NCBI GenBank assembly: GCA_013387215.1
Contig: WARW01000019.1
Coordinates: 22,717 to 86,716 of the forward strand
Length of the DNA: 64,000 nt
Source of the DNA: Patescibacteria group bacterium
GTDB taxonomy: Bacteria > Patescibacteriota > Microgenomatia > UBA12405
Reading direction: 5' to 3'
Below are positions 179 through 34,377 of the stretch, one piece after another (position 1 is the first letter of the stretch; each line of letters begins with the position of its first letter). The position numbers and the translations under genes are program-made. Below the pieces are notes generated by a model. It had not been told where the DNA came from. It was given only the letters and a program-made list of their open reading frames with translations, and did no database searches.

Positions 179-253
179 CCAAAAGATTGGTAAAATACCC
201 CCAATTAAGTAATCAGGCATTTGCCCTCTTTCACTTGATAAATTTCGTTCTTT

Positions 254-268
254 AACAAACGGTCGTAT
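254..268. promoter_or_regulatory. palindromic motif AACAAACGGTCGTAT (AWACG-nn-CGTWT) in the 5' region of secreted-protein gene 1
   Basis: Exact inverted copy at 1156-1170. Variants at 1308-1318, 2093-2112, 2236-2247 and 3187-3204, all flanking the three paralogous secreted-protein genes. Confidence 0.45.
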
Positions 269-314
269 TAAAAAAATGTCCTCAAAAAGAGGAAAGAAAG
301 GTAAGGTGTTTTCC

Positions 315-1097
315 ATGTTAAAAAAAATCGTTTGCCTCGTAATGGTTCTCTTTGTCTGTCTATCAATAACTAGCGTTTCTTTCGGTGCTGAACCACCAAA
401 AACTATTACCGTTACTCTTGTGGACCAAAAAGTAAATTTGAGTTCCAATTGGAGTATCTATTACACCAGAGTGCTTTGGAAAAGAGCTAATGGCACAGAA
501 TACAGTCAGTTGGTCAGCTTTTCATTAAAAAGTTCCACTTTCTCTATTCCCGCAGACGCTTGGGCTGTCAAAATAGACCATGCTTCCAATGTTACAATTT
601 TTACCGAACTTCCGGCTATCTATAATAGCTGTTGGATTATTGTCAAAAATAAACCAGCCGAAGTTTGGACCAATCTCAGCCATAGTTCCACTCACACTCC
701 TGGTTTAGGACATCAGATTTACCAAGTATCTACTTGGGGCAATCATCGTTGGATTTGTTCTTATGAAACCGACACTAATTGCACAATTTGTCATCCTAAA
801 CCTTCAAACGCTATCGATGCTGGTAAAAACTTTGAAACCGGTGTTAACAACACAAAATATATCTATTTCAAAGTTGATACCAACGAGCTGGGCATAATTG
901 GGGCTTTTTCTCTTGATGGCATCTCTGATGGTGTTTACAAGGTTTATACCCCCGGTATATACACTGCTAACATTAACAATGGTTTTCTAGTTATTGTTTC
1001 CAAAGACAAGGCTCAAGCCGAGTGGGATGCACGTCTCAAAACAGCCAAAGATAATGGTTGGGCTTGTGCTCACATTGACAAAGGACCTTTGAAGTAA
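315..1097 (+). CDS. secreted hypothetical protein (signal peptide)
   Basis: ORF 276..1097. Likely start at the internal ATG 315, preceded by a purine-rich RBS (aagaggaaagaaaggtaagg). N-terminus MLKKIVCLVMVLFVCLSITSVSFGA looks like a signal peptide. No recognisable domain. Confidence 0.6.
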   Translation: MLKKIVCLVMVLFVCLSITSVSFGAEPPKTITVTLVDQKVNLSSNWSIYYTRVLWKRANGTEYSQLVSFSLKSSTFSIPADAWAVKIDHASNVTIFTELPAIYNSCWIIVKNKPAEVWTNLSHSSTHTPGLGHQIYQVSTWGNHRWICSYETDTNCTICHPKPSNAIDAGKNFETGVNNTKYIYFKVDTNELGIIGAFSLDGISDGVYKVYTPGIYTANINNGFLVIVSKDKAQAEWDARLKTAKDNGWACAHIDKGPLK

Positions 1098-1345
1098 TTT
1101 TTTGGGGATTCTCTTTTTTCGCAAGATTAATGGGAATCTCCTTCCTGCTTTTAATATACGACCGTTTGTTGCAATTTTTCCTATTTTTTATTGAGTATTT
1201 TTGTGTCTAAAAACTTGACATTTAACCTATAATATAGTAATATATGTTACAGTTTACAAAGAAACCTTTGTTTCGCACAAAACCGCTTCTTGTAATCCTG
1301 GTACCTTAACAAACGGCCACACTTAAACCCAAAAGGAGATTTCAA

Positions 1346-2029
1346 ATGAACCGCAGTGTTGCTTTAAGCATTCGTATCCTTTTCACCCTCAGCTTCATTT
1401 TGGCTCTGACTTTTTCGTCCTGTTTCACGGCCAAAGCTGATTCCGGCAACACCCTGACCATTAGTGGAGATTCTAACCTCATTCAGTTCCAAACCAACTG
1501 GGATGTGGCTTCTCTGCCTATGTTTTGGGGCGTTTCAGGATTACCCATGCAGCCAGACACTATCACCTTCGTCAACCGCCAAGCTCAATTAATTCCGCCC
1601 AAAAACACCGTTTCCATGTTTTTCAATCAGCCCGGAGTCACTGTTTCCACCACCTTCACCGCTTTAACCAGTGATGGATGGTATGCAGTTCCCCAGGCTA
1701 CTGACGAGATTGTTGTTTCTGGTTCCATTGCTTTGGTTCAATTCATATCCAACTTTGATCCAGCACCACTCAGTGTTACTTGGGGCGTTTCAGGACTTCC
1801 GGCTGTAACTCAAACGGTTACTTTCACCAATCGCGTTGCCAGCCTGATTCCCCCTAAAAACACTGTGTCTATGCTGTTTGCCCCCTCAGGCATCAAAGTT
1901 ACCACAAGTTTTCCTAATCTTGGCTTTGGCTGGTATCAGGTTCCCGCAGTTACCCCAACTCCGACTCCCAGCCCGACGCCGAATCCTATTCAAAACAATT
2001 TCATTTATCTCCCTCTCGTTACTCGCTAA
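1346..2029 (+). CDS. secreted protein with two internal ~85-aa tandem repeats, Pro/Thr linker and C-terminal FIYLPLV tail
   Basis: RBS aaaggag lies 8 nt upstream. Signal-peptide-like N-terminus. Internal duplication (…WGVSGLP…T(I/V)TF(V/T)NR.A.LIPPKNTVSM(F/L)F…) occurs twice. TPTPTPSPTPNP linker. Paralogous to 2280..2936. Confidence 0.65.
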   Translation: MNRSVALSIRILFTLSFILALTFSSCFTAKADSGNTLTISGDSNLIQFQTNWDVASLPMFWGVSGLPMQPDTITFVNRQAQLIPPKNTVSMFFNQPGVTVSTTFTALTSDGWYAVPQATDEIVVSGSIALVQFISNFDPAPLSVTWGVSGLPAVTQTVTFTNRVASLIPPKNTVSMLFAPSGIKVTTSFPNLGFGWYQVPAVTPTPTPSPTPNPIQNNFIYLPLVTR

Positions 2030-2043
2030 TTCAAATCCCGCTT

Positions 2044-2081
2044 GGGCTGCTTCCCGACTCTCGTAATCGAGGAAGCAGCCC
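2044..2081. other. GC-rich hairpin (gggctgcttcc…ggaagcagccc) downstream of 1346..2029
   Basis: 11-bp inverted repeat in an AT-rich context with no clear U-tract. A related hairpin starting gggctgc recurs at 3139-3177. Confidence 0.4.
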
Positions 2082-2279
2082 GGGTTTGGGATAAAAGTGT
2101 GGTCGTTTGTATAAATTTTCCCTATTTCCCCCAGATTTTTTCTTGACTTCTACCTATTTTTATTGTAATATAAAATACAATTATAGGCACATTCTTAAAT
2201 TGCCAAGAATTCTGCATATAATCAGTTCTTTAAAAAAACGACCGTATCTCAACCCCAAAATCAAAGAAGGAGTCTAAAA

Positions 2280-2936
2280 ATGTATCACCGTTCAACCGCT
2301 TTACTTGCCTTTATCACCATTGTTCTGTTGAGCACTTTATTGTTCTATCAGTCAAGTGCACACGCAGAATCCGCAAACAACACCATCACCATAAGTGGAG
2401 ACAATTACCTAATCCTTTTCTCATCTGATTTCACTTCCAGCCAAGCATTTTCTGTTCATTGGAGTCCTGATAACCATAACTGGTCAACTCAAGACATCAT
2501 ATTCAATAAAAACAATGTATATATTGAGCCACCAGATGGTACTATCAGCATGAAAATTGACTCAGCCAATACTCTGATTAGTACTAGTTTTAACCCGCAA
2601 GAAAACGGCAGTTATTCTATTCCTCAAATATTCCCCCGTCTTATTCAAATGACTGGAAACAATAAACAATTAACAATGATTATTAGTAATGTTGGCCCAA
2701 TACCTATCCCCATCAGATGGAGACTCCAAAACAACATCGAAATCGAAGATACCCTGAATTTTTATGATAATACTCTTCTTGTGACTCCACCAGTAGGTGC
2801 CGTTGCTATCGGAATGAATCTAAAAGGATACAACTTTTACACCCAATTCGAACTAACTCCCGGTGGATGGTTCCAAATCACTCAGGTTGAAACTGGACCT
2901 CAGCAACAAATCTTTTTACCCTTAATTCAGGGTTAA
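2280..2936 (+). CDS. secreted protein, paralog of 1346..2029 (C-terminal IFLPLI tail)
   Basis: RBS gaaggag. Signal peptide MYHRSTALLAFITIVLLSTLLFYQSSAHA. The N-terminal 'NNTITISGDNYLILF' resembles 'GNTLTISGDSNLIQF' of the neighbour. Shares the C-terminal ΦΦLPLΦ motif. Confidence 0.65.
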   Translation: MYHRSTALLAFITIVLLSTLLFYQSSAHAESANNTITISGDNYLILFSSDFTSSQAFSVHWSPDNHNWSTQDIIFNKNNVYIEPPDGTISMKIDSANTLISTSFNPQENGSYSIPQIFPRLIQMTGNNKQLTMIISNVGPIPIPIRWRLQNNIEIEDTLNFYDNTLLVTPPVGAVAIGMNLKGYNFYTQFELTPGGWFQITQVETGPQQQIFLPLIQG

Positions 2937-7943: not shown

Positions 7944-8519
7944 ATGTATACTTTCGATTATCTAAATAAAAATCGTTTAGCTCCAGACTTTTTTGATCAA
8001 AAAACTCTTGTCATTGCCAAAAATTTGTTAGGAAAATATTTAGTGTCCACTAAAAACAACTTTTTGCAAATCGGCGAAATTATGGAAACTGAAGCCTATA
8101 TTGGCACCAAAGATCTAGCTAGTCATGCCCGCTTTGGCGTTACTCCTAGAAATAAAATTATGTGGGGCAAACCTGGCTTTCTCTATGTTTATTTAGTTTA
8201 CGGTCTTCATCATTTGGTTAATATTGTGGTGGAACAAGAAGGTTTTCCGGCTGCTGTTTTGCTGCGTTCACTAAAACCTATTCAGGGCATCGATATCAAA
8301 ACCAACGGTCCTGCCAAGCTCTGTAAAGCTTTCAATTTGACTGTAGCTAACACTGGCACAAATATTATTACCAGCAATAAAATATTTATTGCTGACCTCA
8401 AAAACAAGCCTCAAAAAATTATCACCTCACCCCGAATTGGTATCGATTATGCCGCCGAACCTTGGAAAAGCAAAAAATGGAGATTTTTAGCCAAAAAAAA
8501 GACCCTGCAAGAATATTGA
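7944..8519 (+). CDS. DNA-3-methyladenine glycosylase (AAG/MPG family)
   Basis: Strong match to the MPG family core: LLGKYLV…ETEAY…DLASHARFGVTPRN…GKPGFLYVYLVYGLHH. Confidence 0.85.
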   Translation: MYTFDYLNKNRLAPDFFDQKTLVIAKNLLGKYLVSTKNNFLQIGEIMETEAYIGTKDLASHARFGVTPRNKIMWGKPGFLYVYLVYGLHHLVNIVVEQEGFPAAVLLRSLKPIQGIDIKTNGPAKLCKAFNLTVANTGTNIITSNKIFIADLKNKPQKIITSPRIGIDYAAEPWKSKKWRFLAKKKTLQEY

Positions 8520-8574
8520 TTATTAAATCAACACCCCATTCGAGTCTTTGACCTTCAGGTCTTTAAAAAAATAG

Positions 8575-9345
8575 TCAATCGTTTTCTACATCCCAAAACT
8601 TATTCCGGCACATCACACCAATCGTCAATCCTTTTTTGTCTGTAACAAAAAGTCCTGCCTTTGGTGAATTTTCTTTGGCATCTGGCCAATATTCAGGCTC
8701 AATTCCAGTAACATCTGATAAAAATCCTAAAAAATGTTCAATATTATCAACGACGAAATCAAAATGAATATCATTTTGATAATCCTCAAGATAATAAAAA
8801 TATTCCTTATAACTCTTACCATATTCAAATGAAGACCCAGATTCTAAGAAAAAAGTTCTAAAATGATCAGCTACGTCTCTAGTATAACCATTTGGACAAC
8901 TAGAAGTAATATTTTCATATTCTTCTTTAGTGCACCAATAACCAGTGTGGTGAAGTTTCAACTTATAAAATATGTCATGATAAAGAATAACAGCTGCAAT
9001 CAACTGATCATGTTCCTCACTTAAGGCACTAACAGCCACATAATTGCAACCATAACGAACTCCGCCTTTCCAGCCATGACCATCTTTAAAGTTTGGAATT
9101 GGGGTCACAGAAAGCCCTTCATTTTTATTCAACAAAAGCAGCTCTCCAGCTTTACAGTTAGCAAAATATGGCCCCCGGGAATTTGTAGAAGGAACACCAG
9201 CCCAACCAGCCTGAGAAAATGCCGATTGACCCTCTGCTTCTCCAATCACCACATAAAATGATTTTTGAATTGAAGTCGCTAAATAATTAGCAAAATCGAA
9301 AGATTTAGGAATAGTTTCCGATAAATAACTTTTCACACCTATCAA
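8575..9345 (-). CDS. hypothetical protein (256 aa)
   Basis: ORF only. Aromatic/Cys-containing sequence with no family recognised. Confidence 0.5.
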   Translation of the reverse strand: MIGVKSYLSETIPKSFDFANYLATSIQKSFYVVIGEAEGQSAFSQAGWAGVPSTNSRGPYFANCKAGELLLLNKNEGLSVTPIPNFKDGHGWKGGVRYGCNYVAVSALSEEHDQLIAAVILYHDIFYKLKLHHTGYWCTKEEYENITSSCPNGYTRDVADHFRTFFLESGSSFEYGKSYKEYFYYLEDYQNDIHFDFVVDNIEHFLGFLSDVTGIEPEYWPDAKENSPKAGLFVTDKKGLTIGVMCRNKFWDVEND

Positions 9346-9472
9346 CCCTTTCTTTTTTTTATTTTTGACTATTTTTAAAAGTGCTTGTAAAACAAAATAT
9401 AGACCGTAAATAGCCCTAAATTATTTTCCGGACAGTATAACAAAATAAAAATTAAAAATCAATATTATAGGA

Positions 9473-10246
9473 TTAGTTAAGTTCAAAACTTACCACCAAA
9501 GATTGACTAACATTTTCAGTTCCAACTTCAGTTACCGCCCCGCCGCCCATTCCGGCCGTTTTTGCCATCATTGGATAAACAGGATTAACACCACCTGCAC
9601 CTTCATTAACACTAACTACTTTACCCAATTTTCTGCCCGATGATTTGGCAATTATTGCTGCTCTTTCTCTGGCATCTTGAATTGCACCGTCGTATAAACT
9701 TTTTTCAATATTACTGGTATTATCCATTCTGAAATTTGGACCATAAACATTGTTAGCACCGCTGCTATTTAACAAATCGGTCAAAGCCGATGCCTTGTCA
9801 ACATCTCTTAAAGTAATTTCAATTGAATTATTAACCACCCATTGACCCCCGCCTCTTTTAACTGGCGCCACTTTTGAATCCATCATGTAAACCGGTTCTT
9901 GCTGTTGATAAACACTTACATTTTGAGTTTTTATATCAGCTGCTGGAATTCCAAACTTTTTCACTGCTTCAACCAAAGCACTTATTTTCTGATTAGTTTC
10001 TGCCACTGCATCTTCTTTTTTATCTTTAATAATGTTCACTCCGGCCGTAAAACTGGCAATCTGATTTTTTTGAGTTGACTTTGCTGTTCCAGTTACAGTT
10101 ACCGTTTGAGGTGTTGCCCATTCAATTCTCCCCCAATTGACCATTTTCCAAGGCAACACCAATGCTGCCGCAATCAACATCACCGCCAAAACTCCAAAAC
10201 CCAACACAATATTGATTTGCCCTTGGTTGTTTTTCATATATTTCAT
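9473..10246 (-). CDS. SIMPL-domain (DUF541) protein, membrane-anchored
   Basis: N-terminal TM segment. The SIMPL-like repeating pattern (…VTVTGTA…IKTQNVSVYQQQE…IEITLRDV…) resembles YggE-like proteins. Confidence 0.65.
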   Translation of the reverse strand: MKYMKNNQGQINIVLGFGVLAVMLIAAALVLPWKMVNWGRIEWATPQTVTVTGTAKSTQKNQIASFTAGVNIIKDKKEDAVAETNQKISALVEAVKKFGIPAADIKTQNVSVYQQQEPVYMMDSKVAPVKRGGGQWVVNNSIEITLRDVDKASALTDLLNSSGANNVYGPNFRMDNTSNIEKSLYDGAIQDARERAAIIAKSSGRKLGKVVSVNEGAGGVNPVYPMMAKTAGMGGGAVTEVGTENVSQSLVVSFELN

Positions 10247-12086: not shown

Positions 12087-12169
12087 ATTACTTTTGCGCG
12101 AAAGTTTTGGTTATCCGGCTATACGGTTGCGGCACAGCCCAGGACTTACACCTGGTTCCCCACTAATTT

Positions 12170-17963: not shown

Positions 17964-18017
17964 AAATAGTGCCCAAAATTGGGGCTTCTCACTATAAATA
18001 CAACTTTATAAATAAAT

Positions 18018-18443: not shown

Positions 18444-18518
18444 TAACATCTCCACCCCGTCCCGAAGCGACAAACTGTCTTTTATTAAATAAATTATTAA
18501 TAATTTAAAAAAACAAAT

Positions 18519-26710: not shown

Positions 26711-27289
26711 CTATTCTTCCCTATATTGGGCATCTTTTTTCATTTCTTTTTCGATCAAGTTTCTCAAAAACACTGATCGTGGAACCATCTTCTTTTGAGC
26801 CACCCAATCAAGATAAGATAAAATTTTTGGATTCACAAAAAAGTTAAATCTGACATCAATCAAGCTATTAGCTTTCTTCATTGCCATCTCCACCACTTCC
26901 TCCATATTCTTTTCATCATATTCCATCATGATTAATTTCGAATCAATTATCCCCTTAATAAAACTTGGCATCTGATTAACTTTATGAAGTGCAATCACTG
27001 GTTTGCTGCTATCCAAAGCTTTGCTTATCAAATAACCTAAAGACATACTATGTCCAGAAGCTTCTACAATCATCACGTCAGCTTTTTTGATGCATTTCAT
27101 CGATTGGACATAATTATCCACTTTCACTTTCAGAGGAGCGCTTTGAATGTCTTTAACCCCCATTTTGGCCCATTTTAAAACTTTGTCGCTCAACATCTTA
27201 TTGCCGGCCTCCAAGCATTGATACATTCTTTCATATAATTTTGGTTCAACTGCCACCAATCTCGATGAAGCAATAAAATATATTTTCAT
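26711..27289 (-). CDS. NDT/SLOG-like + RHH fusion protein; paralog B of 25025..25597
   Basis: Same architecture. The C-terminal 45 aa are nearly identical to paralog A (VRFNFFVNPKILSYLDWVAQKKMVPRSVFLRNLIEKEMKK). The DNA of the 3' ends is also highly similar. Confidence 0.55.
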   Translation of the reverse strand: MKIYFIASSRLVAVEPKLYERMYQCLEAGNKMLSDKVLKWAKMGVKDIQSAPLKVKVDNYVQSMKCIKKADVMIVEASGHSMSLGYLISKALDSSKPVIALHKVNQMPSFIKGIIDSKLIMMEYDEKNMEEVVEMAMKKANSLIDVRFNFFVNPKILSYLDWVAQKKMVPRSVFLRNLIEKEMKKDAQYREE

Positions 27290-27412: not shown

Positions 27413-28495
27413 TTACTTCTTCAAAATACTATTAAAAAAACCGATATCTTGCCCAACCACTTGATTCCAACTATTTTTTAAATTATGATCATCACCTTGA
27501 TAAACATATAGTGTTGCAGATTTTCCCAAAGCTTTAAGTTTATTAACAACTTCTTGCTGCCAATCCACATTGCACCAGACATCAGCCGTCCCTTGATGAA
27601 TTATAACTGGCGCCTCAATCCATTGATAATAATTTTCTACTGCATATCTTCTTGGATCGTATCTTTTTCCAAAATCGCTGATTAATTTTCTTATCGGATC
27701 GCCGCTTGTACCGCTGTCTGCCGTATCCAAAACACTCTGAGGAAATGGATTTGTCATTGGCGCCCACAAAACTGTTGGGTAATCAGCACTACTCACTTCC
27801 AATGTCGATAAAGCGATTTGTCCGCCGTTGCTGTGCGCCCAAATGCCAATTTTACTTGAATCAACATATGGCAGTCTTTTAACTGACTCGATTAAATCCA
27901 TCACTGATTCCACTTTCTCAAATCTCGCTTCCAACGAATCAGCACTTTCATTATTTGACAGTCCATATCCTAAAAAATCCAAAGACACTGTCACATATCC
28001 ATTTTTAGCCAATTCATCGGCAACTTTCCAGGTTCCAGAACCGGAGTAATACCCTTCTCCTTCAGCAAACCCTCGGATCATAATTATTGCTGGCATCTTA
28101 TTGCTCATTGGCGTCATCGGTGTATTTATCATTCCGCTTATTTTTTTGCCGTTGCTTTGAAAACTGAATATTTCACTTTTCCATGTCATGCTTTTATTTA
28201 AAATTGATTGGGCTAGTTTTTGTTTCTTTTTGGGCAATGTTGCTTTAATGGCATTCAATCTTCTGATATTTACATCAACAGTTTCTCCTTCAATCTTAAT
28301 ATCACTCCCAATCCCCCCTCTTTTTTTTAAAGAATCAAAATCATATTTTTCCAATTTATTTTCTTTCCGCTCAAATTTACCGCCGCCTGGATTCAAGTTT
28401 GAAAACCATGGCCACTTGTAATAATTTTTGTATACATAAAATCCCGTGCCCAAAAATAAAACCAACCCCAAAGCTAAAATAATTATTTTCTTCAC
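27413..28495 (-). CDS. alpha/beta hydrolase (S9/dienelactone-hydrolase-like), N-terminal membrane anchor
   Basis: N-terminal TM segment. GIWAHSNGG nucleophile elbow and a C-terminal DH pair. Confidence 0.7.
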   Translation of the reverse strand: MKKIIILALGLVLFLGTGFYVYKNYYKWPWFSNLNPGGGKFERKENKLEKYDFDSLKKRGGIGSDIKIEGETVDVNIRRLNAIKATLPKKKQKLAQSILNKSMTWKSEIFSFQSNGKKISGMINTPMTPMSNKMPAIIMIRGFAEGEGYYSGSGTWKVADELAKNGYVTVSLDFLGYGLSNNESADSLEARFEKVESVMDLIESVKRLPYVDSSKIGIWAHSNGGQIALSTLEVSSADYPTVLWAPMTNPFPQSVLDTADSGTSGDPIRKLISDFGKRYDPRRYAVENYYQWIEAPVIIHQGTADVWCNVDWQQEVVNKLKALGKSATLYVYQGDDHNLKNSWNQVVGQDIGFFNSILKK

Positions 28496-28614
28496 TATAT
28501 TATTTTAAACCATTTTACAATCACTTCTCTTTTGTGTATAATCCCGTAATTTTAAATACAAAGCTATTGCGCTTTGATATTTGCACATTAACTAAGAGAA
28601 AGGAGCTGATTTCC

Positions 28615-29028
28615 ATGGCACTTATTATCCGTAAGCATTATCTTTATGGCACAAAAGAGAAAATTGGTTTAAACCTTTTATTAAATGGACATTATAATCC
28701 AGACGATCAATCGCTCAAACTAATCCCCGGTATCCAAACACTAACCGTCTCAGATCATCAGCTGATTGTCTTTTTTGCCAACAGCCTGGTCGGCTTCGAA
28801 GTGATGGCCACCAATGTTCCCATCAAAGCAGTTGAACATCTTCACAGTGTTACTGAAAAATCCGATCAGTATATGATCGAAAATAAAAATAAGATGTACA
28901 TTCATGTCAAAAAGGATCCGGAGTTTCTCCTTGGCTACGAACTTATCATTATTCCCGACGAGAGGGCTAAAATTTTGTCCAAAAACGAAGATATCCCTCT
29001 TTGTGGTCCATATGATGATAATCGTTAG
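28615..29028 (+). CDS. hypothetical protein (cassette gene a)
   Basis: ORF 28534..29028. Start probably at ATG 28615 after the aaggag RBS. Own TTGACA-like/-10 TATAATCCC promoter and TTGCACATT 5'UTR motif. Confidence 0.5.
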   Translation: MALIIRKHYLYGTKEKIGLNLLLNGHYNPDDQSLKLIPGIQTLTVSDHQLIVFFANSLVGFEVMATNVPIKAVEHLHSVTEKSDQYMIENKNKMYIHVKKDPEFLLGYELIIIPDERAKILSKNEDIPLCGPYDDNR

Positions 29029-29291
29029 TAGCTTCCCTTTGTCTTGCCTCTGGCTGTTTTATAAATTTATTTATAAACACTCGGAGGTTTTTTTTGGCAA
29101 AATTATCTTATAACTTGAAATAAACATTAGTGTTGTATATAATCCCGCTGAAACTTTTAAACCAAAAATATTCGCATTTTTAGGTTTTTTTGCACTTTTA
29201 CACACAAGCTCGTTTGGCTCAGCTTGAATATTAAATTAATGTTCAGACTGAGCCCAATGTAGCTCAAAATAATAATAAAGAAGGTGTTTTT

Positions 29292-29801
29292 ATGCAAAGC
29301 GCTCCATCAATCAAAGGAAGTAGCGATATTATTCAAACAACGACAATACTCTACAAAACTAAAGATGATTTTATAAATCGCAGTCACTCCACTCGTCCAG
29401 AAATCGAAAGACGTATATTGCCATTGTCTGACCTTGGCCTCTTACTGTCCAAGAAAAAATCTCTAATATACATTAAAGCAGTTGCCGAAGACACTCGTAT
29501 TTTTGTCTCCAGCTTATACATCTCTCCCAAAGGTTCTGTACTCCTGCCTGAAGGACTAATAACCAGCTCGGGTAGATTTGTTCTAACTTATGACAGCCAA
29601 GGCGGTAAATTTACTAATCATGATAAAAAAGGCATCTGGATAGGTAGTTGTTCGGAAAATCCGATTAAACTTACCCTTCATTCCGAATACCCTTTTGTCC
29701 CTTATGCCACTTACGACAACCATTTGCTGGCAATCCTCCTGACTGAAAAAATGAAAAAGATCATTGGTGAATATGAAGTTGCCAATCTCATCTTTGATTA
29801 A
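29292..29801 (+). CDS. hypothetical protein (cassette gene b)
   Basis: RBS aaggtg. Own promoter (…tatataatcccg…) and own terminator. Confidence 0.5.
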   Translation: MQSAPSIKGSSDIIQTTTILYKTKDDFINRSHSTRPEIERRILPLSDLGLLLSKKKSLIYIKAVAEDTRIFVSSLYISPKGSVLLPEGLITSSGRFVLTYDSQGGKFTNHDKKGIWIGSCSENPIKLTLHSEYPFVPYATYDNHLLAILLTEKMKKIIGEYEVANLIFD

Positions 29802-29826
29802 TTCTTTATTATTTTTAATTACCAAG

Positions 29827-29876
29827 CCCGAGGCTTTTTGATAATATTTTTTTATCAATTCCTCGGGTTTTATTTT
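29827..29876 (+). terminator. rho-independent terminator with nested palindrome (cassette b)
   Basis: cccgagg…[ttgataa…ttatcaa]…cctcggg then TTTTATTTT. Confidence 0.7.
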
Positions 29877-30082
29877 GACTATATTTATATCCTATAACTT
29901 GATTATTTTATATATATTTGGTATAATTCCCTGTTTTTTAAACATCCCAAAAAATAATTGCATTTTTGGGTTTATGTACCTTAAAAATCAATAAGCTAAA
30001 TCGAGCAAGTGCTCTATTTGGACATAAATTTTATGCCTAAATCGAGCATTTGCTCAAAATTTTAGTTAGGAGAGTGTATTTT

Positions 30083-31060
30083 ATGAACGATTACTTATTT
30101 GTATCTGACATTCACGGTGAGGATCTTAATTTAGCTGAAAAACTTTTCAAGATTGCCGAGGGCAGCGAACTACCCAAAATAGTCTTTTTCCTTGGTGATG
30201 TGGTTGGAACTAAGCTTCTAGATCAGCTGCAAAAGCTTTTCTATAACCGCGTTTACAATCATATGAAAGCTTTATTGAAAAATAATCCCAATCCAAGCGA
30301 CCGGGAAATTATCGATTATCCTATTGGCGATGGAAAAACAATTGCTGATGGCTGCAAAGAACTCAGCGATTTTCTCCAAAATATCGACCCTGAATACAGG
30401 CCTGTCGGTATAGCTACATATGCCAGGGAATTGGTCTCTTATGTTCATTATGGACATTTTTGCTCCAATTTGACAAAAACGATCAAGGAATTCATTAAAA
30501 AAGATATGAAAGAAAATGCCCAAGTTTGGCTGGAAGTCATGAACGCATTCATTGAAAAAGGCGTACTTGTTGTTGTTATTGAAGGAAACTGGGATGCTCG
30601 CACCCCGCTTGACTTTATGCCCAGCAAAAAAGAATGCCTGCCCCTCCCAATTAAAAACAGATCTTTTTATTTTAAAGAACTATTAAGGTCCTACAATAAT
30701 CAGATCTTATACTTTGATGCAGTTGGTACTATTGAAACCGAAAACGAAATCTTCGTTCTCTGGCCATTTGATAGTGCAATTAACGCTACCCAAATTCCTG
30801 AATTTGATGACAATGAAACCAGAAAAATAGTTTTGGTCTCACACGCTCAAATCGATTGGGAAGCAATCAAAGGTAAAACAGCCATGACTGCCGAAGGTGA
30901 AACTATCCAATTTAATATGGGCATGACGTTCATTGATTTAAAGGCTGATACTGCCGTCCATGGACATTTGCATGACGATATTAACATTGATAATTACTCT
31001 TATCATGAAAAGAATATTCATTATTTGCCCCTTCGCACCTACCGTTTTATTAATTTTTAG
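30083..31060 (+). CDS. calcineurin-like metallophosphoesterase family protein (cassette gene c)
   Basis: Start at MNDYLFVSDIHGED after the taggagag RBS. Motifs D-x-H-G (VSDIHG) and GD-x-x-x (FFLGDVVG) are typical of MPP-superfamily phosphoesterases. Confidence 0.6.
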   Translation: MNDYLFVSDIHGEDLNLAEKLFKIAEGSELPKIVFFLGDVVGTKLLDQLQKLFYNRVYNHMKALLKNNPNPSDREIIDYPIGDGKTIADGCKELSDFLQNIDPEYRPVGIATYARELVSYVHYGHFCSNLTKTIKEFIKKDMKENAQVWLEVMNAFIEKGVLVVVIEGNWDARTPLDFMPSKKECLPLPIKNRSFYFKELLRSYNNQILYFDAVGTIETENEIFVLWPFDSAINATQIPEFDDNETRKIVLVSHAQIDWEAIKGKTAMTAEGETIQFNMGMTFIDLKADTAVHGHLHDDINIDNYSYHEKNIHYLPLRTYRFINF

Positions 31061-31075
31061 CTTATCTGATCCGAT

Positions 31076-31128
31076 AGCCCTGATGTTTCACAAGATTTAT
31101 CTTGTATCAACCTCAGGGCTTTTTTTTC
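31076..31128 (+). terminator. rho-independent terminator with nested palindrome (cassette c)
   Basis: agccctga…[acaagat…atcttgt]…tcagggct followed by T8. Confidence 0.75.
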
Positions 31129-31263
31129 TTAAAATTCTATCCTATAACTTGATTTTAATATCTATACTTAGTATAATCCCCTGTTTTCCAAAAACTTAAA
31201 ACATCAGCGTTTTTTGTTTTGCACATTTAAAATCCTTAAACTAACTAGAAAGGAGGCGTTAAT

Positions 31264-31713
31264 ATGCTCGACCTTGACCACCCAACCTTTATCGATGACA
31301 CCGCCGGCACTTTAAAAAGATATCTTAAAAAAAGACAGATTGCTTATACTACTGAACCAGGATCAGCTCAAAATGTCCGGCTTAATCCAGACGATGTCAC
31401 CACCGTTATTTCCTATTACAGAAATTTTCGCCGCAAAATGAAAAACCAGTGGAAAAAAAGTTTAAAACATCTTCATTGTAAAAATGAATTGATTAAGCCA
31501 GTCCAGATTAAACTTATTCGGGTTGATCGTCCAGACGAAGACTATGAAATCACAAAAGCAGCTGAGAAATTAAATATATTCCATGTTGATTTCGCCATGA
31601 CTCAAAATAATATTGAAACTTTCTTTTGGATTTCAGAAAACAAACTTGCTCAACATAATCGCCACATATATCGCACAAGCGACCATACCCTTAAAATAAT
31701 CCGTATTTGTTAG
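31264..31713 (+). CDS. hypothetical protein (cassette gene d)
   Basis: RBS aaaggagg. Preceded by tataatcccctg -10/discriminator and the ttttgcacattt 5'UTR motif. Confidence 0.5.
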   Translation: MLDLDHPTFIDDTAGTLKRYLKKRQIAYTTEPGSAQNVRLNPDDVTTVISYYRNFRRKMKNQWKKSLKHLHCKNELIKPVQIKLIRVDRPDEDYEITKAAEKLNIFHVDFAMTQNNIETFFWISENKLAQHNRHIYRTSDHTLKIIRIC

Positions 31714-31725
31714 TTCTTTGGACTC

Positions 31726-31773
31726 GACTCCGATATTTTGATTTATATCAAAACCAATCGGGGTCTTTTTTTT
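31726..31773 (+). terminator. rho-independent terminator with nested palindrome (cassette d)
   Basis: gactccgat…[ttttgat…atcaaaa]…atcggggtc followed by T8. Confidence 0.75.
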
Positions 31774-31884
31774 GCCAAAATTATCTGGTTTATACATTCT
31801 GAAAATGCGCTATAATCAGCCAAATTAAAATAAAAGCATTTTAGTTTTTGCACTTTAACCAAAAAATAAGAAAGGGTGAATTAT

Positions 31885-32424
31885 ATGAATGATCTACTCA
31901 TCATTTGCTCGACCGATGATAAAAAAATAGAGGATCTTCTTAAAACCAAATTGAGTATTGAAGATTTGGTGACAATTTTTAATTATGCCAAAAGCAGCTT
32001 CCGATCAACTGTCCTTGATAAGCTAAGAAGTTCTACTGGCACACTTGAAACTTGGATAAATGTCTACAAGAACAACCGGTCAAACCTCCTCTTGCCTGTC
32101 GCCTCGGAAAAAATTAAACCTTTTTTGTCAGACATTACTGATTTTAACGAACTAGTTAAAGTCTATAATAAATGCGACAAAATCGTCCCCATTCAAACGG
32201 TTATTTTTGAAGCCATTGAAAACTATCCATACACACTCGAAAAACTGCTGGAAATAAACCGCGGCCCCAAGATCCCTCAAAAAATTAGCACTTATATTCT
32301 GAACCAAATCCGGTCCCGGATCAATTTAATAAACGACAAAAATGAAATTGCCAGCTTCCAAAACCCTCAAAACAGCCAAACTCTAAAAGAATTTATTCAA
32401 ACAAGACTCTCAAAACTTTCTTAA
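31885..32424 (+). CDS. hypothetical protein (cassette gene e)
   Basis: ORF 31876..32424. Likely start MNDLLIICS after the aagaaagggtg RBS. Preceded by gctataat and tttttgcacttta. Confidence 0.5.
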   Translation: MNDLLIICSTDDKKIEDLLKTKLSIEDLVTIFNYAKSSFRSTVLDKLRSSTGTLETWINVYKNNRSNLLLPVASEKIKPFLSDITDFNELVKVYNKCDKIVPIQTVIFEAIENYPYTLEKLLEINRGPKIPQKISTYILNQIRSRINLINDKNEIASFQNPQNSQTLKEFIQTRLSKLS

Positions 32425-32440
32425 AAAATTATGGTTTCTT

Positions 32441-32498
32441 GACCTCAGTTAGTTTATTTGCAAAATGCAAATTAACGCTAATCTGAGGTCTTTTTTTT
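32441..32498 (+). terminator. rho-independent terminator with nested palindrome (cassette e)
   Basis: gacctcag…[tttgcaaaatgcaaa]…ctgaggtc followed by T8. Confidence 0.75.
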
Positions 32499-32654
32499 GA
32501 TTTAAAGCTAAACAGTTATACACATCATTTACGCATTGACTTTTCGGAAATACTCCATTAGAATTCTTAGTTTGGAACAGACAACCGCGTCTCGAATCCA
32601 ATTGTTCTTTAAAAACGTAAAACACATCTGTAATTGATCAAAGGAGGTCAAACC

Positions 32655-33032
32655 ATGCCCCATTACACCGACAACACCCAACCTAACCTAAAAGAAAACA
32701 GCAAAACATTGATTATTCAAGGGAAAGTAACTTATTTAGACCCAAAGTTTGCCCCCAAACCGCCCACTCATCAATCTAAAGCCTTCTCACCCCTTTATAT
32801 CACCACTAAAAGCCAGCTTGAGTATCCCAAATTAATAAAAATTATTGAAAATAAAACCAATAATTCTCTTGATTTTAGTTCAATTTCCATGCGCCTCAGT
32901 CTAATGAAGGTTCCCCATGCGAAAGTCAGAAACAATTTCTACTCAGCCTATATCGACAAGCCTAATCTGGCAGACATCAAAGAAACGGTTCATCGTCAAA
33001 GCAGTGGCCATTGGTCAGTTATAGAAATATAG
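32655..33032 (+). CDS. hypothetical protein (cassette gene f)
   Basis: ORF 32634..33032. Likely start MPHYTDN after the aaaggagg RBS. Confidence 0.5.
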   Translation: MPHYTDNTQPNLKENSKTLIIQGKVTYLDPKFAPKPPTHQSKAFSPLYITTKSQLEYPKLIKIIENKTNNSLDFSSISMRLSLMKVPHAKVRNNFYSAYIDKPNLADIKETVHRQSSGHWSVIEI

Positions 33033-33050
33033 TGTTTTATTTTCCAAAAC

Positions 33051-33100
33051 AGACTCCAAATGTGTTTTTAATATAAAGCCATTTTTGGAGTCTTTTTTTT
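33051..33100 (+). terminator. rho-independent terminator (cassette f)
   Basis: agactccaaa…tttggagtct followed by T8. Confidence 0.75.
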
Positions 33101-33129
33101 ACCCAAATTTTGAATATTGTTCTTATTAA

Positions 33130-33277
33130 ATATGAATGTTATAATCCTCTATTCACCGAAGACAGTAGGTTTTCTGAGCAATCAGAATCGAAGCATCCTA
33201 CCGAGGCAATCAACAAAGTTATTTGTATTTGATTATCTCCTCGCACTCGGCGAGGATTTTTTTTATTAAAAAACATT
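33130..33277 (+). promoter_or_regulatory. rplJ promoter and structured L10 leader with attenuator-like hairpin
   Basis: gttataatcctc -10 element. About 130-nt leader ending in ctcctcgcactcggcgaggattttttttt (GC stem + U-tract) immediately before the rplJ ATG. This resembles the known L10(L12)4 autoregulatory leader arrangement. Confidence 0.5.
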
Positions 33278-33799
33278 ATGCCAACACAGAAAAAAATTGA
33301 TCAAGTCGCAGATGTGGCAAAAAAGTTCACTGAAGCTAAATCAGCTGCTTTGGTTCAATACCAAGGTCTAAATGCTGCTGATATCGCTGCTTTGCGCGCC
33401 AGCATCAAAGAAAAAGGCGGTTCTATGGAAGTTGTTAAAAACTCCCTTATTACACGTGCTTTAGAACAATTAGGATTAAAACTTCCTGAAACCTTAACCG
33501 GTCCCACTTCTATTGCTTTCTGCAATGAAGACGAAGTCGCTCCTTTAAAAGAAATCGACAAAGTCAACAAAGCTAAAGACATTACCAGTTTCAAATATGG
33601 AATCTACGATAAAAAGTTACTTTCCTTAAATGAACTCAAGAGTTTCCTAAACTTACCAAGCAAAACCACTCTTATTGCTCAATTCATTGGTGGATTGGTC
33701 AATCCTTTACAAAGAATGGCTTACGCTTTCCGTTTCAACCAAACTCAATTGGTTTTAACTCTCAAAGCTGTTGCTGAAAAACAAGAAAAAACAAATTAA
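33278..33799 (+). CDS. rplJ: 50S ribosomal protein L10
   Basis: L10 family similarity (…AALVQYQGLNAADIAALRASIKEKGG…). Directly upstream of rplL. Confidence 0.9.
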   Translation: MPTQKKIDQVADVAKKFTEAKSAALVQYQGLNAADIAALRASIKEKGGSMEVVKNSLITRALEQLGLKLPETLTGPTSIAFCNEDEVAPLKEIDKVNKAKDITSFKYGIYDKKLLSLNELKSFLNLPSKTTLIAQFIGGLVNPLQRMAYAFRFNQTQLVLTLKAVAEKQEKTN

Positions 33800-33824
33800 T
33801 AATTTATAAATTAAAAATAATAAT

Positions 33825-34226
33825 ATGGAAGAAGTCCAAATTAGTGCAAAATTACAGAAAATAATTGATTCTGTAGCCGAATTATCAGTTCTCGAACTCT
33901 CTGAGCTCGTCAAAGCTTTCGAAGTAAAATTCGATGTTAAAGCTGTTGCCGCTGCTCCTGCTACTGGCGCTCCTGCTGCCGCTGCTGGTGAAGCTGCTCC
34001 TGCTGCTGAAGAAAAATCTGATTTCGATGTCGTTATTACTTCTGCTGGTGCAAATAAAATTGCTGTCATCAAAGTAATCCGAGAATTCAAACCAGAATTA
34101 GGTCTTAAAGAAGCTAAGGATATGGTTGATGCCACCCCAGCTAATTTAGGTAACATGAAGAAAGAAGCTGCTAATGATGCAAAAGCAAAATTAGAAGCTG
34201 CTGGTGCTCAAGTCGAATTAAAATAA
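33825..34226 (+). CDS. rplL: 50S ribosomal protein L7/L12
   Basis: N-terminal dimerisation helix, Ala/Pro-rich hinge, and C-terminal domain (…KIAVIKVIREF…GLKEAKDMVD…). Confidence 0.93.
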   Translation: MEEVQISAKLQKIIDSVAELSVLELSELVKAFEVKFDVKAVAAAPATGAPAAAAGEAAPAAEEKSDFDVVITSAGANKIAVIKVIREFKPELGLKEAKDMVDATPANLGNMKKEAANDAKAKLEAAGAQVELK

Positions 34227-34280: not shown

Positions 34281-34377
34281 ATCTGTAGTTTTTTTATCGC
34301 AAAATTTCCGGGCTTACTTGTAACCAATATTACATTAATGGTATAATTCCGTTTAAATAAGTGATTAAACAATAATC

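What the first reader, a model, noticed from the sequence alone, without database searches (positions are those of the whole stretch)
28500..33110. Island of six singleton small genes, each with its own near-identical strong promoter, 5'UTR motif and nested-palindrome terminator
Genes a–f (28615..29028, 29292..29801, 30083..31060, 31264..31713, 31885..32424, 32655..33032) are not detectably paralogous to each other. One is a calcineurin-like phosphoesterase; the rest have no known domain. Genes a–e each carry a TTGAyT/-N17-/TATAAT(C/T)CC(C) promoter with a GC-rich discriminator and a conserved 5'UTR box (T)TTGCAC(A/T)TT(T)A about 30-45 nt after the -10. Each of the six ends in a terminator built the same way: outer GC stem, inner AT palindrome such as ttgataa…ttatcaa, and a T8 tract. 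Intergenic modules are alignable (e.g. 29860-29985 vs 31105-31230, including 'tatcctataacttgatt'). This looks like an array of independently and strongly expressed cassettes that has grown by copying a promoter/terminator scaffold around unrelated payloads. Such islands often hold defence, anti-defence or host-interaction genes. The 5'UTR GCAC box suggests a shared regulator or RNA element.
Basis: seen in the sequence. Interest (0 to 1): 0.7.

Follow-up and report, generated by a model that had tools for sequence, protein, structure and literature searches.

The report
Accessory-gene cassettes with rRNA-style leaders
Six small, mostly orphan genes in a Candidatus Shapirobacteria (CPR) genome fill a hypervariable slot just upstream of ribosomal protein gene rplJ, and each is a separate transcription unit built from a lineage-wide kit: a strong promoter, a leader hairpin followed by a box resembling the rRNA antitermination signal boxA, and a long terminator.

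Summary
Six co-oriented genes (28615-33032) each have their own sigma-70-type promoter, a 5' leader motif, a strong ribosome-binding site and a long nested-hairpin terminator.

The scaffold is not an invention of this island. The leader is bipartite: a small hairpin with a loop ending in GC, then a box G-Y-W-C-N-U-U-W-A-M-A-A. This box is close to rRNA boxA (gamma-proteobacterial consensus GYTCTTTAANA), and gene f matches that consensus exactly. The same promoter and leader occur elsewhere in the window, in other Shapirobacteria, and in more than 120 metagenome contigs. A genuine 16S rRNA leader from a module-bearing organism carries hairpin + GCACATTTGAAAA.

The island lies between a conserved hydrolase gene and the L10 leader. 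That gap ranges from 127 nt to 4.8 kb across relatives, with almost no shared genes. Only the phosphoesterase (c) and a fast-evolving gene (e) recur there.

Best reading: a hypervariable accessory slot whose genes use rRNA-like, probably Nus-factor-dependent, expression cassettes. No defence, phage or integron signature was found. Protein functions remain unknown except that c is a predicted active metallophosphoesterase.

The parts
27413..28495 (-). Conserved left flank: alpha/beta hydrolase (Peptidase_S9/Hydrolase_4)
   Evidence: Pfam. Homologues at 49-60% identity in 19 related loci, always upstream of rplJ.
28514..28542 (+). Promoter a (TTTACA-17-TATAAT, discriminator CCCG)
28559..28594 (+). 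Leader a: hairpin CAAAGC-TATTGC-GCTTTG, then boxA-like GCACATTAACTA (28583-28594)
28615..29028 (+). Gene a, 137 aa, no known family
   Evidence: no tblastn hit in related loci
29046..29095 (+). Terminator a: nested hairpin + T8
   Evidence: (z -3.2)
29104..29143 (+). Upstream box TATCTTATAAC plus promoter b (TTGAAA-17-TATAAT, CCCG)
   Evidence: (repeat families D7/D8)
29162..29264 (+). Leader b: hairpin (loop ATTCGC), T7, boxA-like GCACTTTTACAC (29192-29203), long hairpin 29207-29264
   Evidence: (z -5.2)
29292..29801 (+). Gene b, 169 aa, orphan
   Evidence: No homologue other than itself among 1.84 billion representative proteins.
29825..29876 (+). Terminator b: nested hairpin + TTTTATTTT
   Evidence: z -5.7
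29888..29927 (+). Upstream box TATCCTATAAC plus promoter c (TTGATT-17-TATAAT, TCCC)
29946..30055 (+). Leader c: hairpin (loop AATTGC), boxA-like GTACCTTAAAAA (29976-29987), long hairpin 30003-30055
   Evidence: z -5.7. Conserved in L322 and L324; 5 of 23 pairs show compensatory changes.
30083..31060 (+). Gene c, 325 aa, calcineurin-like metallophosphoesterase with a helical insert
   Evidence: Pfam. About 60 homologues. Metal-ligand residues D9, H11, D39, N169, H254, H295, H297 are conserved. AF2 pLDDT 94.8. Foldseek hits are metallophosphoesterase folds.
31077..31127 (+). Terminator c: nested hairpin + T8
   Evidence: (z -5.8)
31138..31177 (+). Upstream box TATCCTATAAC plus promoter d (TTGATT-17-TATAAT, CCCC)
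31198..31232 (+). Leader d: hairpin AAAAC-ATCAGC-GTTTT, then boxA-like GCACATTTAAAA (31221-31232)
31264..31713 (+). Gene d, 149 aa, no known family
   Evidence: single-sequence AF2 model unusable (pLDDT 38)
31726..31773 (+). Terminator d: nested hairpin + T8
   Evidence: (z -4.5)
31789..31816 (+). Promoter e (TTTATA-16-TATAAT)
31827..31861 (+). Leader e: hairpin AAAAT-AAAAGC-ATTTT, then boxA-like GCACTTTAACCA (31850-31861)
31885..32424 (+). Gene e, 179 aa, fast-evolving resident of the slot
   Evidence: No word-index homologue. Similar to the gene in the same position in L324/L325 (29% identity, E 1e-19) and to L014 (25% identity).
32441..32498 (+). Terminator e: nested hairpin + T8
   Evidence: (z -5.8)
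32536..32564 (+).
32579..32615 (+). Leader f: hairpin AGAC-AACCGC-GTCT, then GTTCTTTAAAAA (32604-32615), an exact match to consensus GYTCTTTAANA
   Evidence: consensus from PMC5725501
32655..33032 (+). Gene f, 125 aa, no known family
33051..33100 (+). Terminator f: nested hairpin + T8, insulating the rplJ promoter and leader
   Evidence: (z -5.2)
33138..33272 (+). Conserved right flank: L10 leader (RF00557), followed by rplJ (33278-33799) and rplL (33825-34226)
   Evidence: (59.8 bits)
8480..9480 (-). A complete cassette of the same design outside the island: ATCCTATAATATTGATT-17-TATACT promoter, boxA GCACTTTTAAAA (9384), 256-aa gene with no Pfam hit (8575-9345), nested terminator + T8 (about 8500)
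240..2936 (+). Three secreted genes (at least the second and third are paralogous), each with its own promoter and a boxA-like 5'UTR: GTTCTTTAACAA at 247, GTACCTTAACAA at 1301, GTTCTTTAAAAA at 2225

Best explanation
The region is a hypervariable accessory-gene slot in a Candidatus Shapirobacteria (CPR/Patescibacteria) chromosome. It lies between a conserved hydrolase gene and the L10 leader/rplJ-rplL operon. Its six genes are separate monocistronic units built from an expression module that this lineage uses widely for lineage-specific genes.

The module has five parts:
1. A near-consensus sigma-70 promoter with a C-rich discriminator. In b, c and d an ATC(C/T)TATAAC box abuts the -35 element.
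2. A bipartite leader RNA: a small hairpin with a conserved loop (WWYNGC or AUUGC), then 1-29 nt further on a box G-Y-W-C-N-U-U-W-A-M-A-A.
3. A strong Shine-Dalgarno sequence.
4. The payload ORF.
5. A long intrinsic terminator.

Inferred mechanism, not shown: the box is this lineage's boxA and the hairpin is a boxB-like element. The nascent leader recruits NusB-S10 and the other Nus factors, as on rRNA operons. Transcription of poorly conserved, possibly poorly translated genes would then be processive and Rho-resistant, or it would be tied to Nus-factor availability as at E. coli suhB. The unusually long terminators would stop these modified complexes, insulating each cassette and the autoregulated rplJ leader.

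Gene content turns over by insertion, loss and rapid divergence. Genes c (metallophosphoesterase) and e are older residents of the slot; a, b, d and f have no detectable relatives. Modules are locally copied (c and d) and persist while payloads change.
For: **Organism and synteny**
- L10 is 82% identical to a Shapirobacteria MAG.
- Hydrolase, rplJ, rplL and the downstream NTP-transferase are conserved in about 20 loci, whereas the hydrolase-to-rplJ gap varies from 127 nt to 3.3 kb (4.8 kb here) and shares genes only among close relatives.
- Genes c and e recur in this slot in L322-L325.

**Cassette anatomy**
-.

**Leader motif**
- All six island 5'UTRs carry hairpin + box.
- In the window, 11 of 34 box matches lie in 5'UTR space (expected 1.3, P = 5e-8; antisense control 1).
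- Among metagenome promoters fetched with the upstream-box pattern, 43 of 101 carry the box within 200 nt downstream, against 1 of 101 on the antisense strand.
- Positions 11 and 12, which the search pattern did not fix, are A in 42 and 32 of 46 instances, as in E. coli GCTCTTTAACAA.
- A GC-ended-loop hairpin precedes the box in 37 of 69 instances, against 4/69 shuffled, 5/69 reverse-complement and 7.7% of random 60-mers.
- The bipartite motif is 8-35 times denser than in GC-matched viral DNA.
- Box density is 0.64 per kb on the sense strand of the islands, against 0.15 per kb in the flanks.

**boxA identity**
- The published consensus is GYTCTTTAANA (PMC5725501). Gene f and the boxes at 247 and 2225 match it exactly.
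- A genuine 16S leader (L257/L312/L315) has hairpin + CTTTTTGAT + GCACATTTGAAAA. At least its first 12 nt (GCACATTTGAAA) also occur in the island cassette of Shapirobacteria locus L016.
- boxA upstream of non-rRNA targets is established (PMC5725501; PMC7665894).

**Module reuse**
-.
Against: - No rRNA leader from this genome or from a confirmed Shapirobacteria genome could be retrieved. The same-lineage comparison therefore rests on one organism of unknown affiliation that shares the promoter and leader style.
- Five of the six island boxes have A rather than T at consensus position 3, and some have an extra base.
- The presence of nusB, rho or NusG paralogues in this genome was not checked.
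- In E. coli, rrn-type antitermination is thought mainly to oppose Rho (own knowledge). Its benefit for 0.4-1 kb monocistronic mRNAs is therefore not obvious.
- There are no expression data. Promoter strength is inferred from consensus matches alone.
- In b, d and e the hairpin is followed by a U-rich tract and could instead be a weak attenuator.
Confidence: 0.55

Rival explanations
1. The bipartite leader is a lineage-specific regulatory RNA unrelated to Nus factors. Candidates are a binding site for an unknown RNA-binding protein or a specialised NusG paralogue (LoaP-like), an mRNA-stabilising or RNase-processing element, or a hairpin + U-tract attenuator. On this reading the resemblance to boxA is coincidental in AU-rich leaders.
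For: - The hairpin loop is conserved in sequence (AUUGC or WWYNGC) while the stems vary. This suggests a sequence-specific partner; as far as I know (own knowledge, not checked here) the rrn boxB of E. coli has no such requirement.
- In b, d and e a U-rich run follows the hairpin.
- Genes b and c also carry a 55-nt helix of the kind RNase III could cut.
- No Rfam family matches.
- Antitermination that depends on a leader hairpin and a NusG paralogue is a known mechanism (PMC12691694, listed).
Against: - The box matches the published boxA consensus exactly in 3 window 5'UTRs and at unconstrained positions in 46 instances.
- A real 16S leader carries the same arrangement.
Confidence: 0.25
2. The island is an array of mobile cassettes, integron-like or phage-moron-like. 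The conserved ATCCTATAAY box or the terminator hairpins would serve as recombination sites that capture foreign genes.
For: - Each gene is an independent promoter-to-terminator unit, as phage morons are defined (PMC3594210, listed).
- The slot is hypervariable.
- The box marks the 5' edge of cassettes b, c and d.
- In L209 and L221 such promoters sit directly 3' of tRNA genes.
- One viral contig carries the box + promoter.
Against: - Pfam assigned no integrase, transposase or phage family to the genes within about 8 kb that had hits; four neighbours (24428-25018, 26711-27289, 35980-36996, 36993-39494) had no Pfam hit.
- No DNA similarity to 50,697 phage records.
- Island GC content is the same as the genome's (0.35 against 0.36).
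- Unlike integron cassettes, each unit has its own promoter.
- The features that were not fixed by the search pattern next to the box (TTGAC[AT], TGn) are promoter features.
- No payload was found in two different genomic contexts.
Confidence: 0.1
3. The payloads form a defence, anti-defence or host-interaction island. This concerns payload function and does not exclude the expression-module explanation.
For: - The locus is variable and full of orphan genes under strong promoters.
- Phosphoesterases occur in some nucleotide-signalling defence and counter-defence systems (own knowledge).
Against: - PADLOC gave only one sub-threshold hit, for gene e at E = 0.004.
- PHROGs and NCBIfam gave nothing.
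- None of the six proteins has a signal peptide or transmembrane segment at its N terminus (read from the sequences).
- Gene c resembles generic metallophosphoesterases only weakly (TM about 0.4).
Confidence: 0.12

Closest known systems
rRNA-operon antitermination leader (boxB-boxA-boxC; NusB/NusE/NusA/NusG/SuhB complex), and boxA upstream of non-rRNA targets such as suhB and CRISPR arrays (PMC5725501, PMC7665894)
   Same: - A promoter-proximal transcribed element made of a hairpin followed by a box matching GYTCTTTAANA, exactly or with one or two changes.
- It is found on several unrelated transcription units.
- A 16S leader from a module-bearing organism has the same arrangement.
   Different: - Here it sits on short monocistronic mRNAs for orphan proteins.
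- The lineage variant usually has A at position 3 (GCAC or GUAC).
- The upstream hairpin has a conserved loop sequence.
- No factor binding or antitermination has been shown.
Phage morons (independent promoter-gene-terminator units; PMC3594210)
   Same: Each gene is flanked by its own sigma-70 promoter and a factor-independent terminator. The payloads are unrelated accessory genes of unknown function.
   Different: The setting is chromosomal, between housekeeping genes, with no prophage. The scaffold is shared across a bacterial lineage and includes a conserved leader RNA.
Integron gene-cassette arrays
   Same: A co-oriented array of small, unrelated, mostly orphan genes at one locus, with content that varies between relatives.
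   Different: No integrase was found. Each cassette has its own promoter. The inter-cassette hairpins are terminators with T8 tracts rather than attC sites.
LoaP/UpxY-type processive antitermination (NusG paralogue plus leader hairpin; PMC12691694)
   Same: A small conserved hairpin in the 5' leader of accessory-gene transcription units.
   Different: Those systems act on long biosynthetic operons. No NusG paralogue was looked for here.

Membership tests
boxA-type (Nus factor) antitermination leader | Sequence matches the boxA consensus (GYTCTTTAANA in gamma-proteobacteria) | tested here: met
   Gene f (GTTCTTTAAAA), 247 (GTTCTTTAACA) and 2225 (GTTCTTTAAAA) match exactly. Genes a-e differ at position 3 (A) and at one or two other positions. 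Unconstrained positions 11 and 12 are A in 42 and 32 of 46 instances.
boxA-type (Nus factor) antitermination leader | The same motif is present in the rRNA leader of the same lineage | tested here: inconclusive
   One 16S leader (L257/L312/L315) from an organism with the same promoter and leader style has hairpin + GCACATTTGAAAA. No rRNA leader of this MAG or of a confirmed Shapirobacteria genome could be fetched.
boxA-type (Nus factor) antitermination leader | Located in the transcribed leader, downstream of a promoter and upstream of the regulated gene, on the sense strand only | tested here: met
   11 of 34 window matches lie in sense-strand 5'UTR space against 1 on the antisense strand. 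Among metagenome promoters, 43 of 101 against 1 of 101.
boxA-type (Nus factor) antitermination leader | Preceded by a boxB-like hairpin | tested here: met
   37 of 69 instances, against 4-5 of 69 in the shuffled and reverse-complement controls. All six island leaders have one.
boxA-type (Nus factor) antitermination leader | Binds NusB-NusE and alters termination or expression | not testable with these tools
   Needs biochemistry or genetics. The presence of nusB and rho in the genome was not checked.
Integron cassette array | Adjacent integron integrase (IntI) | tested here: not met
   Neighbours with a Pfam assignment within about 8 kb are hydrolases, a Mur ligase, FemAB, an aminotransferase, a radical SAM enzyme, a nucleoside deoxyribosyltransferase-like protein and an NTP-transferase; four neighbours had no Pfam hit.
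Integron cassette array | Promoterless cassettes separated by attC sites | tested here: not met
   Every cassette has its own promoter. The inter-gene hairpins end in T8 and fold as terminators. No formal attC model was run.
Phage moron / prophage island | Embedded in a phage or prophage genome | tested here: not met
   No phage-family hits above noise, no blastn match to 50,697 phage records, and housekeeping genes on both sides.
Known anti-phage defence system | Proteins match models of known or candidate defence systems | tested here: not met
   PADLOC gave nothing except a weak partial hit for gene e (E = 0.004).
Calcineurin-like metallophosphoesterase (gene c) | Pfam Metallophos above its gathering score, conserved metal-binding motifs (D-x-H, GD, GN-x-D, H, G-H-x-H) and the metallophosphoesterase fold | tested here: met
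   30.6 bits against 21.5. D9, H11, D39, N169, H254, H295 and H297 are invariant or nearly so in 35 homologues. AF2 pLDDT 94.8. Best Foldseek hits are aq_1956, Dbr1, GpdQ and Mre11, at low TM of about 0.4.

The most novel reading that the evidence does not exclude
Shapirobacteria and other CPR bacteria have turned rRNA-type processive antitermination into a general, portable expression platform for fast-evolving accessory genes. The platform is a dedicated promoter class with an upstream ATCCTATAAT box and a leader with a sequence-specific hairpin (loop AUUGC) followed by boxA. The conserved loop implies a so far unknown N-like or NusG-paralogue-like RNA-binding partner. The module would let new or foreign ORFs be expressed without Rho silencing in genomes that have very few regulators.
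Probability: 0.3. Interest if true: 0.75.

Novelty: new variant of a known kind. Interest (0 to 1): 0.55.

Why it matters
CPR/Patescibacteria are uncultured, and almost nothing is known about their transcription signals. If the reading holds, four things follow:
- It gives a concrete, searchable promoter-and-leader grammar for this lineage. That helps to fix gene starts, to spot highly expressed accessory genes and to interpret metatranscriptomes.
- It extends boxA/Nus-factor control from rRNA, suhB and CRISPR arrays to a whole class of orphan protein genes.
- It identifies a defined hypervariable slot, between the hydrolase gene and rplJ, for studying gene birth and turnover in reduced genomes.
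- The conserved hairpin loop points to an RNA-protein interaction that has not been described.

Tried and rejected
- **Viral scan with a 15-mer.** The longer box + -10 pattern found one viral contig, which lacks boxA.
- **Rfam.** No family covers the island leaders at E <= 5.
- **Exact look-ups of the source contig.** These failed, so the remaining 28 kb of the contig, and any rRNA operon on it, could not be read.
- **A 16S search among fetched loci.** It found only one organism.
- **Homology searches.** Genes e and b found only themselves. PHROGs, PADLOC and NCBIfam were empty.
- **Structure prediction for d.** The single-sequence AF2 model had pLDDT 38 and was discarded.
- **Covariance model of the leader.** Not built. 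MAFFT could not put 5-nt and 6-nt loops in one register and custom alignments cannot be uploaded. Enrichment tests with shuffled, reverse-complement, random and GC-matched controls were used instead.
- **Stem pair counts.** These are not evidence for the hairpin, because the stems were a selection criterion.
- **Integron or prophage origin.** Rejected: the neighbours with a Pfam assignment include no recombinase or phage family, and the island has no similarity to phage DNA.
- **Box as a DnaA box.** The ATCCTATAAT box matches only 6 of 9 positions (by eye), so this was not pursued.

Full report
**Context**

The window comes from a Candidatus Shapirobacteria (CPR/Patescibacteria) genome. Its L10 protein is 82% identical to that of a Shapirobacteria MAG, and 25 related loci were recovered. 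Directly downstream of the finding lie the L10 leader (Rfam RF00557, 59.8 bits, 33138-33272) and rplJ-rplL. Upstream lies a divergently oriented alpha/beta hydrolase gene (27413-28495). Within about 8 kb on either side, the genes that Pfam could assign are housekeeping or metabolic genes: a Mur ligase, FemAB, an aminotransferase, a radical SAM enzyme, a nucleoside deoxyribosyltransferase-like protein and an NTP-transferase. Four neighbours had no Pfam hit. None was assigned to a recombinase, transposase or phage family. The island's GC content (0.35) is the same as the rest of the window.

**Checking the observation**

The six ORFs are at the stated coordinates and each has a strong Shine-Dalgarno sequence. 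They are not paralogous by BLASTP. Only c matches a Pfam family, Metallophos. PHROGs, PADLOC and NCBIfam gave nothing meaningful.

Promoter-like sites scoring 10-11 of 12 precede genes a-e. Strong consensus promoters in intergenic positions are rare in the rest of the 64 kb. TATAATYCC occurs 7 times against 1.8 expected, with four of the seven in the island.

The simple terminator scan missed all six terminators because their loops are long. Each nevertheless folds as a long nested hairpin (z = -3.2 to -5.8). Five are followed by T8 and b by TTTTATTTT. The same terminator style occurs elsewhere in the window, near 8500 and 15903 on the minus strand. The style therefore belongs to the genome; what is special to the island is how densely such terminators occur.

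Intergenic modules c and d are 77% identical over 82 nt, including the promoter spacer.

**The 5'UTR box is one half of a bipartite leader**

The exact string TTGCACWTT is not significantly enriched. A slightly broader pattern, G[CT][ATC]CNTT[TA]A[ACT], is strikingly localised. Of its 34 matches in the window, about the number expected from base composition (my rough estimate), 11 lie in the 4% of sequence that is non-coding and within 120 nt upstream of a same-strand gene. The expectation is 1.3 (P = 5e-8), and the antisense control gives 1. Six of the 11 are the island genes a-f. The others precede three secreted proteins at 276-2936, a 256-aa gene at 8575-9345 (minus strand) and a 150-aa gene at 62956-63408 (minus strand). 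None of those that were scanned has a Pfam family.

In every island leader the box is preceded, 6-11 nt upstream, by a small hairpin whose loop ends in GC. The loops are TATTGC, ATTCGC, AATTGC, ATCAGC, AAAAGC and AACCGC.

**The module is lineage-wide**

In related Shapirobacteria, the same slot contains promoters of the form ATC(C/T)TA(T/C)AA(T)(C)-TTGAnn-17-TAnAAT, followed by the hairpin and box, in front of unrelated genes.

In 105 unique instances, the positions that the pattern did not fix show TTGAC[A/T] and an extended -10 TGn. These are therefore genuine promoters.

Of 101 instances with enough downstream sequence, 43 carry the box within 200 nt, usually 45-90 nt after the -10 element. 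The antisense strand gives 1 of 101. Enriched 7-mers include ACTTTAA, TTAACAA and GCACTTT.

Among promoter + box instances, 37 of 69 have a hairpin with a loop of N3-4GC within 60 nt upstream. The controls give 4/69 (shuffled), 5/69 (reverse complement) and 7.7% (random 60-mers). The stems differ between instances while the loop is conserved, with AUUGC the most common.

The strict bipartite motif occurs at 6.3 per 100 kb in the window, 1.5 in Shapirobacteria loci and 4.0 in the metagenome loci. GC-matched viral contigs give 0.18 and other phyla 0.11. Within the rplJ-proximal slots of 25 loci, box density on the sense strand is 0.64 per kb, against 0.15 per kb in the flanks.

Payloads downstream of these promoters are mostly small (median 140 aa) and diverse. 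They are soluble, secreted or membrane proteins. A complete cassette of the same design lies at 8480-9480 on the minus strand of the window.

**What the box most resembles**

The gamma-proteobacterial boxA consensus is GYTCTTTAANA (PMC5725501), and boxA consensus is known to drift between phyla (PMC7665894). Gene f (GTTCTTTAAAA) and the boxes at 247 and 2225 match the consensus exactly. Genes a-e carry the variant GCAC/GUAC-(N)-UUWA. Across 46 instances, positions 11 and 12, which my pattern left free, are A in 42 and 32 cases, as in E. coli GCTCTTTAACAA.

The only rRNA operon present among the fetched loci (L257/L312/L315) comes from an organism that also uses the ATCCTATAAT-TTGACA promoter style. 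Its 16S leader reads promoter ... CCCCGCTTGGCGGGG-CTTTTTGAT-GCACATTTGAAAA, which is hairpin, U-rich spacer and box. At least the first 12 nt of that box (GCACATTTGAAA) also occur in an island cassette of Shapirobacteria locus L016.

This is the kind of same-organism rRNA comparison used to validate divergent boxA sequences in cyanobacteria (PMC7665894). Here, however, it was not done on the window's own genome, whose rRNA operon could not be reached. I therefore take the hairpin + box to be a boxB/boxA-type Nus-factor leader with moderate confidence (about 0.55). No Rfam family covers it, and the paper library returned nothing relevant on boxA in Patescibacteria.

**How it would work (inference)**

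A near-consensus promoter with a C-rich discriminator fires. The nascent hairpin and box then recruit NusB-S10 and partner factors. The modified elongation complex transcribes the short, fast-evolving ORF regardless of how well it is translated, which would protect it from Rho. Alternatively, as at E. coli suhB (PMC5725501), Nus binding close to the Shine-Dalgarno sequence would tie expression to Nus-factor supply.

The unusually long terminators with T8 tracts would then be needed to stop processive complexes. They would keep each unit separate and keep read-through out of the autoregulated L10 leader.

Genes b and c carry an extra 55-nt helix between the box and the Shine-Dalgarno sequence (z about -5.5). 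That helix is conserved in L322 in front of the phosphoesterase, and in L324/L325 in front of a different, 111-aa gene. Five of its 23 pairs show compensatory changes, though only four sequences were compared. Its role is unknown.

**The island as a hypervariable slot**

Hydrolase, rplJ, rplL and the downstream NTP-transferase are conserved in about 20 loci. None of a-f gave a tblastn hit in the 25 species-representative loci, apart from a weak match of e in L014.

The hydrolase-to-rplJ gap ranges from 127 nt (L024) to 3.3 kb (L011). At 4.8 kb it is largest in the window. Gene families are shared only among close relatives. At 90% identity all the island proteins found in the collection (b-f) are singletons; the 137-aa form of a was not found there. 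Genes b and e have no sequence relatives in billions of proteins.

The slot is not entirely fluid, however. Gene c has about 60 homologues (30-62% identity), mostly from Shapirobacteria. In L322/L323 and L324/L325 it sits in the same slot. In L324/L325 the gene between the phosphoesterase and rplJ is a 29%-identical relative of e (E = 1e-19), whereas L10 is 76% identical between the same genomes. So c and e are older residents and e is evolving very fast. Genes a, b, d and f are additions or have diverged beyond recognition.

A second variable gap lies between rplL and the NTP-transferase gene. It holds gene g here and ranges from 70 nt to 5 kb in relatives.

**Payload function**

Gene c is predicted to be an active metallophosphoesterase. 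All its metal ligands are conserved, and the AF2 model has pLDDT 94.8 with a large helical insert. It resembles solved structures only distantly: aq_1956, Dbr1, GpdQ and Mre11, at TM about 0.4. The only PDB sequence hit is YfcE, at E = 0.0015. The other five proteins remain unassigned, and a single-sequence model of d was unusable. None of the six has an obvious signal peptide. No defence, phage or mobile-element signature was found.

**Verdict**

The scaffold, however, is a lineage-wide expression module whose leader looks like an rRNA-type boxB/boxA element. It is not a local invention, and the defence-island idea has no support. In kind, this is a new variant of known things: boxA-regulated non-rRNA genes, and moron-like transcription units.

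Three points remain unexplained and are recorded in the notebook: the conserved hairpin loop, the upstream ATCCTATAAT box, and the long helix in the b and c leaders.

Noticed in passing
window 29104-29114, 29888-29898, 31138-31148, about 9463-9473 (minus strand); L007, L009, L010, L013, L016, L017, L022, L324; more than 120 metagenome contigs: A conserved box (W)TATCCTATAA(T/C)(N) lies directly 5' of the -35 hexamer of many promoters in this lineage. It contains a TATAAT-like hexamer. No known factor or element explains it.
   Followed up: partly
window 29207-29264 and 30003-30055; L322 about 95-150; L324 about 7415-7470: A long helix of about 55 nt (GAGCAAnTGCTC ... GAGCAnTTGCTC) lies between the boxA-like box and the ribosome-binding site. 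It is conserved across genomes in front of different genes, with some compensatory changes. It could be an RNase III site or a regulatory switch.
   Followed up: partly
window 240-2936: Three tandem genes for secreted proteins (the second and third are 26% identical). Each has its own promoter and a boxA-like 5'UTR followed by ACGRYCG, so this is a second cassette array at the window's edge.
   Followed up: partly
window 12099-12177 (minus strand): An AdoCbl-II (B12) riboswitch aptamer (38.5 bits against a gathering score of 36.5). It lies beside a cobalamin adenosyltransferase gene (12170-12652) and downstream of an 835-aa ORF (12798-15305, not scanned against Pfam; possibly a ribonucleotide reductase given the adjacent NrdR) and NrdR (15309-15761).
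   Followed up: no
window 1-64000: GC skew is negative (C > G on the + strand) in all but one 1-kb bin (30001-31000, +0.003), whatever the gene orientation. The cumulative skew falls to -14 by the end of the window.
   Followed up: no
window 17367-19283 versus 33278-34226; L324: The usual nusG-rplK-rplA-rplJ-rplL cluster is split. About 14 kb of cell-wall genes and other genes, plus the variable slot, separate rplA from rplJ. The same arrangement is seen in a related Shapirobacteria contig.
   Followed up: partly
window 34318-34851: Gene g (157 aa, orphan) has a TTGTAA-18-TATAATTCC promoter but no boxA. It fills a second variable gap, between rplL and the NTP-transferase gene, which ranges from 70 nt to 5 kb in relatives.
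   Followed up: partly
L209, L221: Cassette promoters with the ATCCTATAAT box begin 10-15 nt after the 3' end of a tRNA gene, a position typical of insertion hot spots.
   Followed up: no
L225, L257, L312, L315: In the organism that supplied the 16S leader, the 16S and 23S genes are about 6 kb apart, with a group II intron fragment and two tRNA genes between them. A box-type promoter in that spacer points toward the 16S gene on the opposite strand.
   Followed up: no
L201 2700-3120 (minus strand): A 105-kb viral contig carries AATCCTATAATTTGACT-17-TATAAT in front of an ORF of about 75 aa with a terminator but no boxA. It may be a phage of a CPR host that uses the same promoter style.
   Followed up: no
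window 29088-29110, 31120-31140, 31766-31785, 33093-33110, about 8500 (minus strand); L322 about 1700: The terminator T8 tracts are followed by a conserved GSCAAAAWT. The T-tract plus A-tract resembles an UP element placed for the next promoter, which would mean terminator and promoter signals overlap.
   Followed up: no
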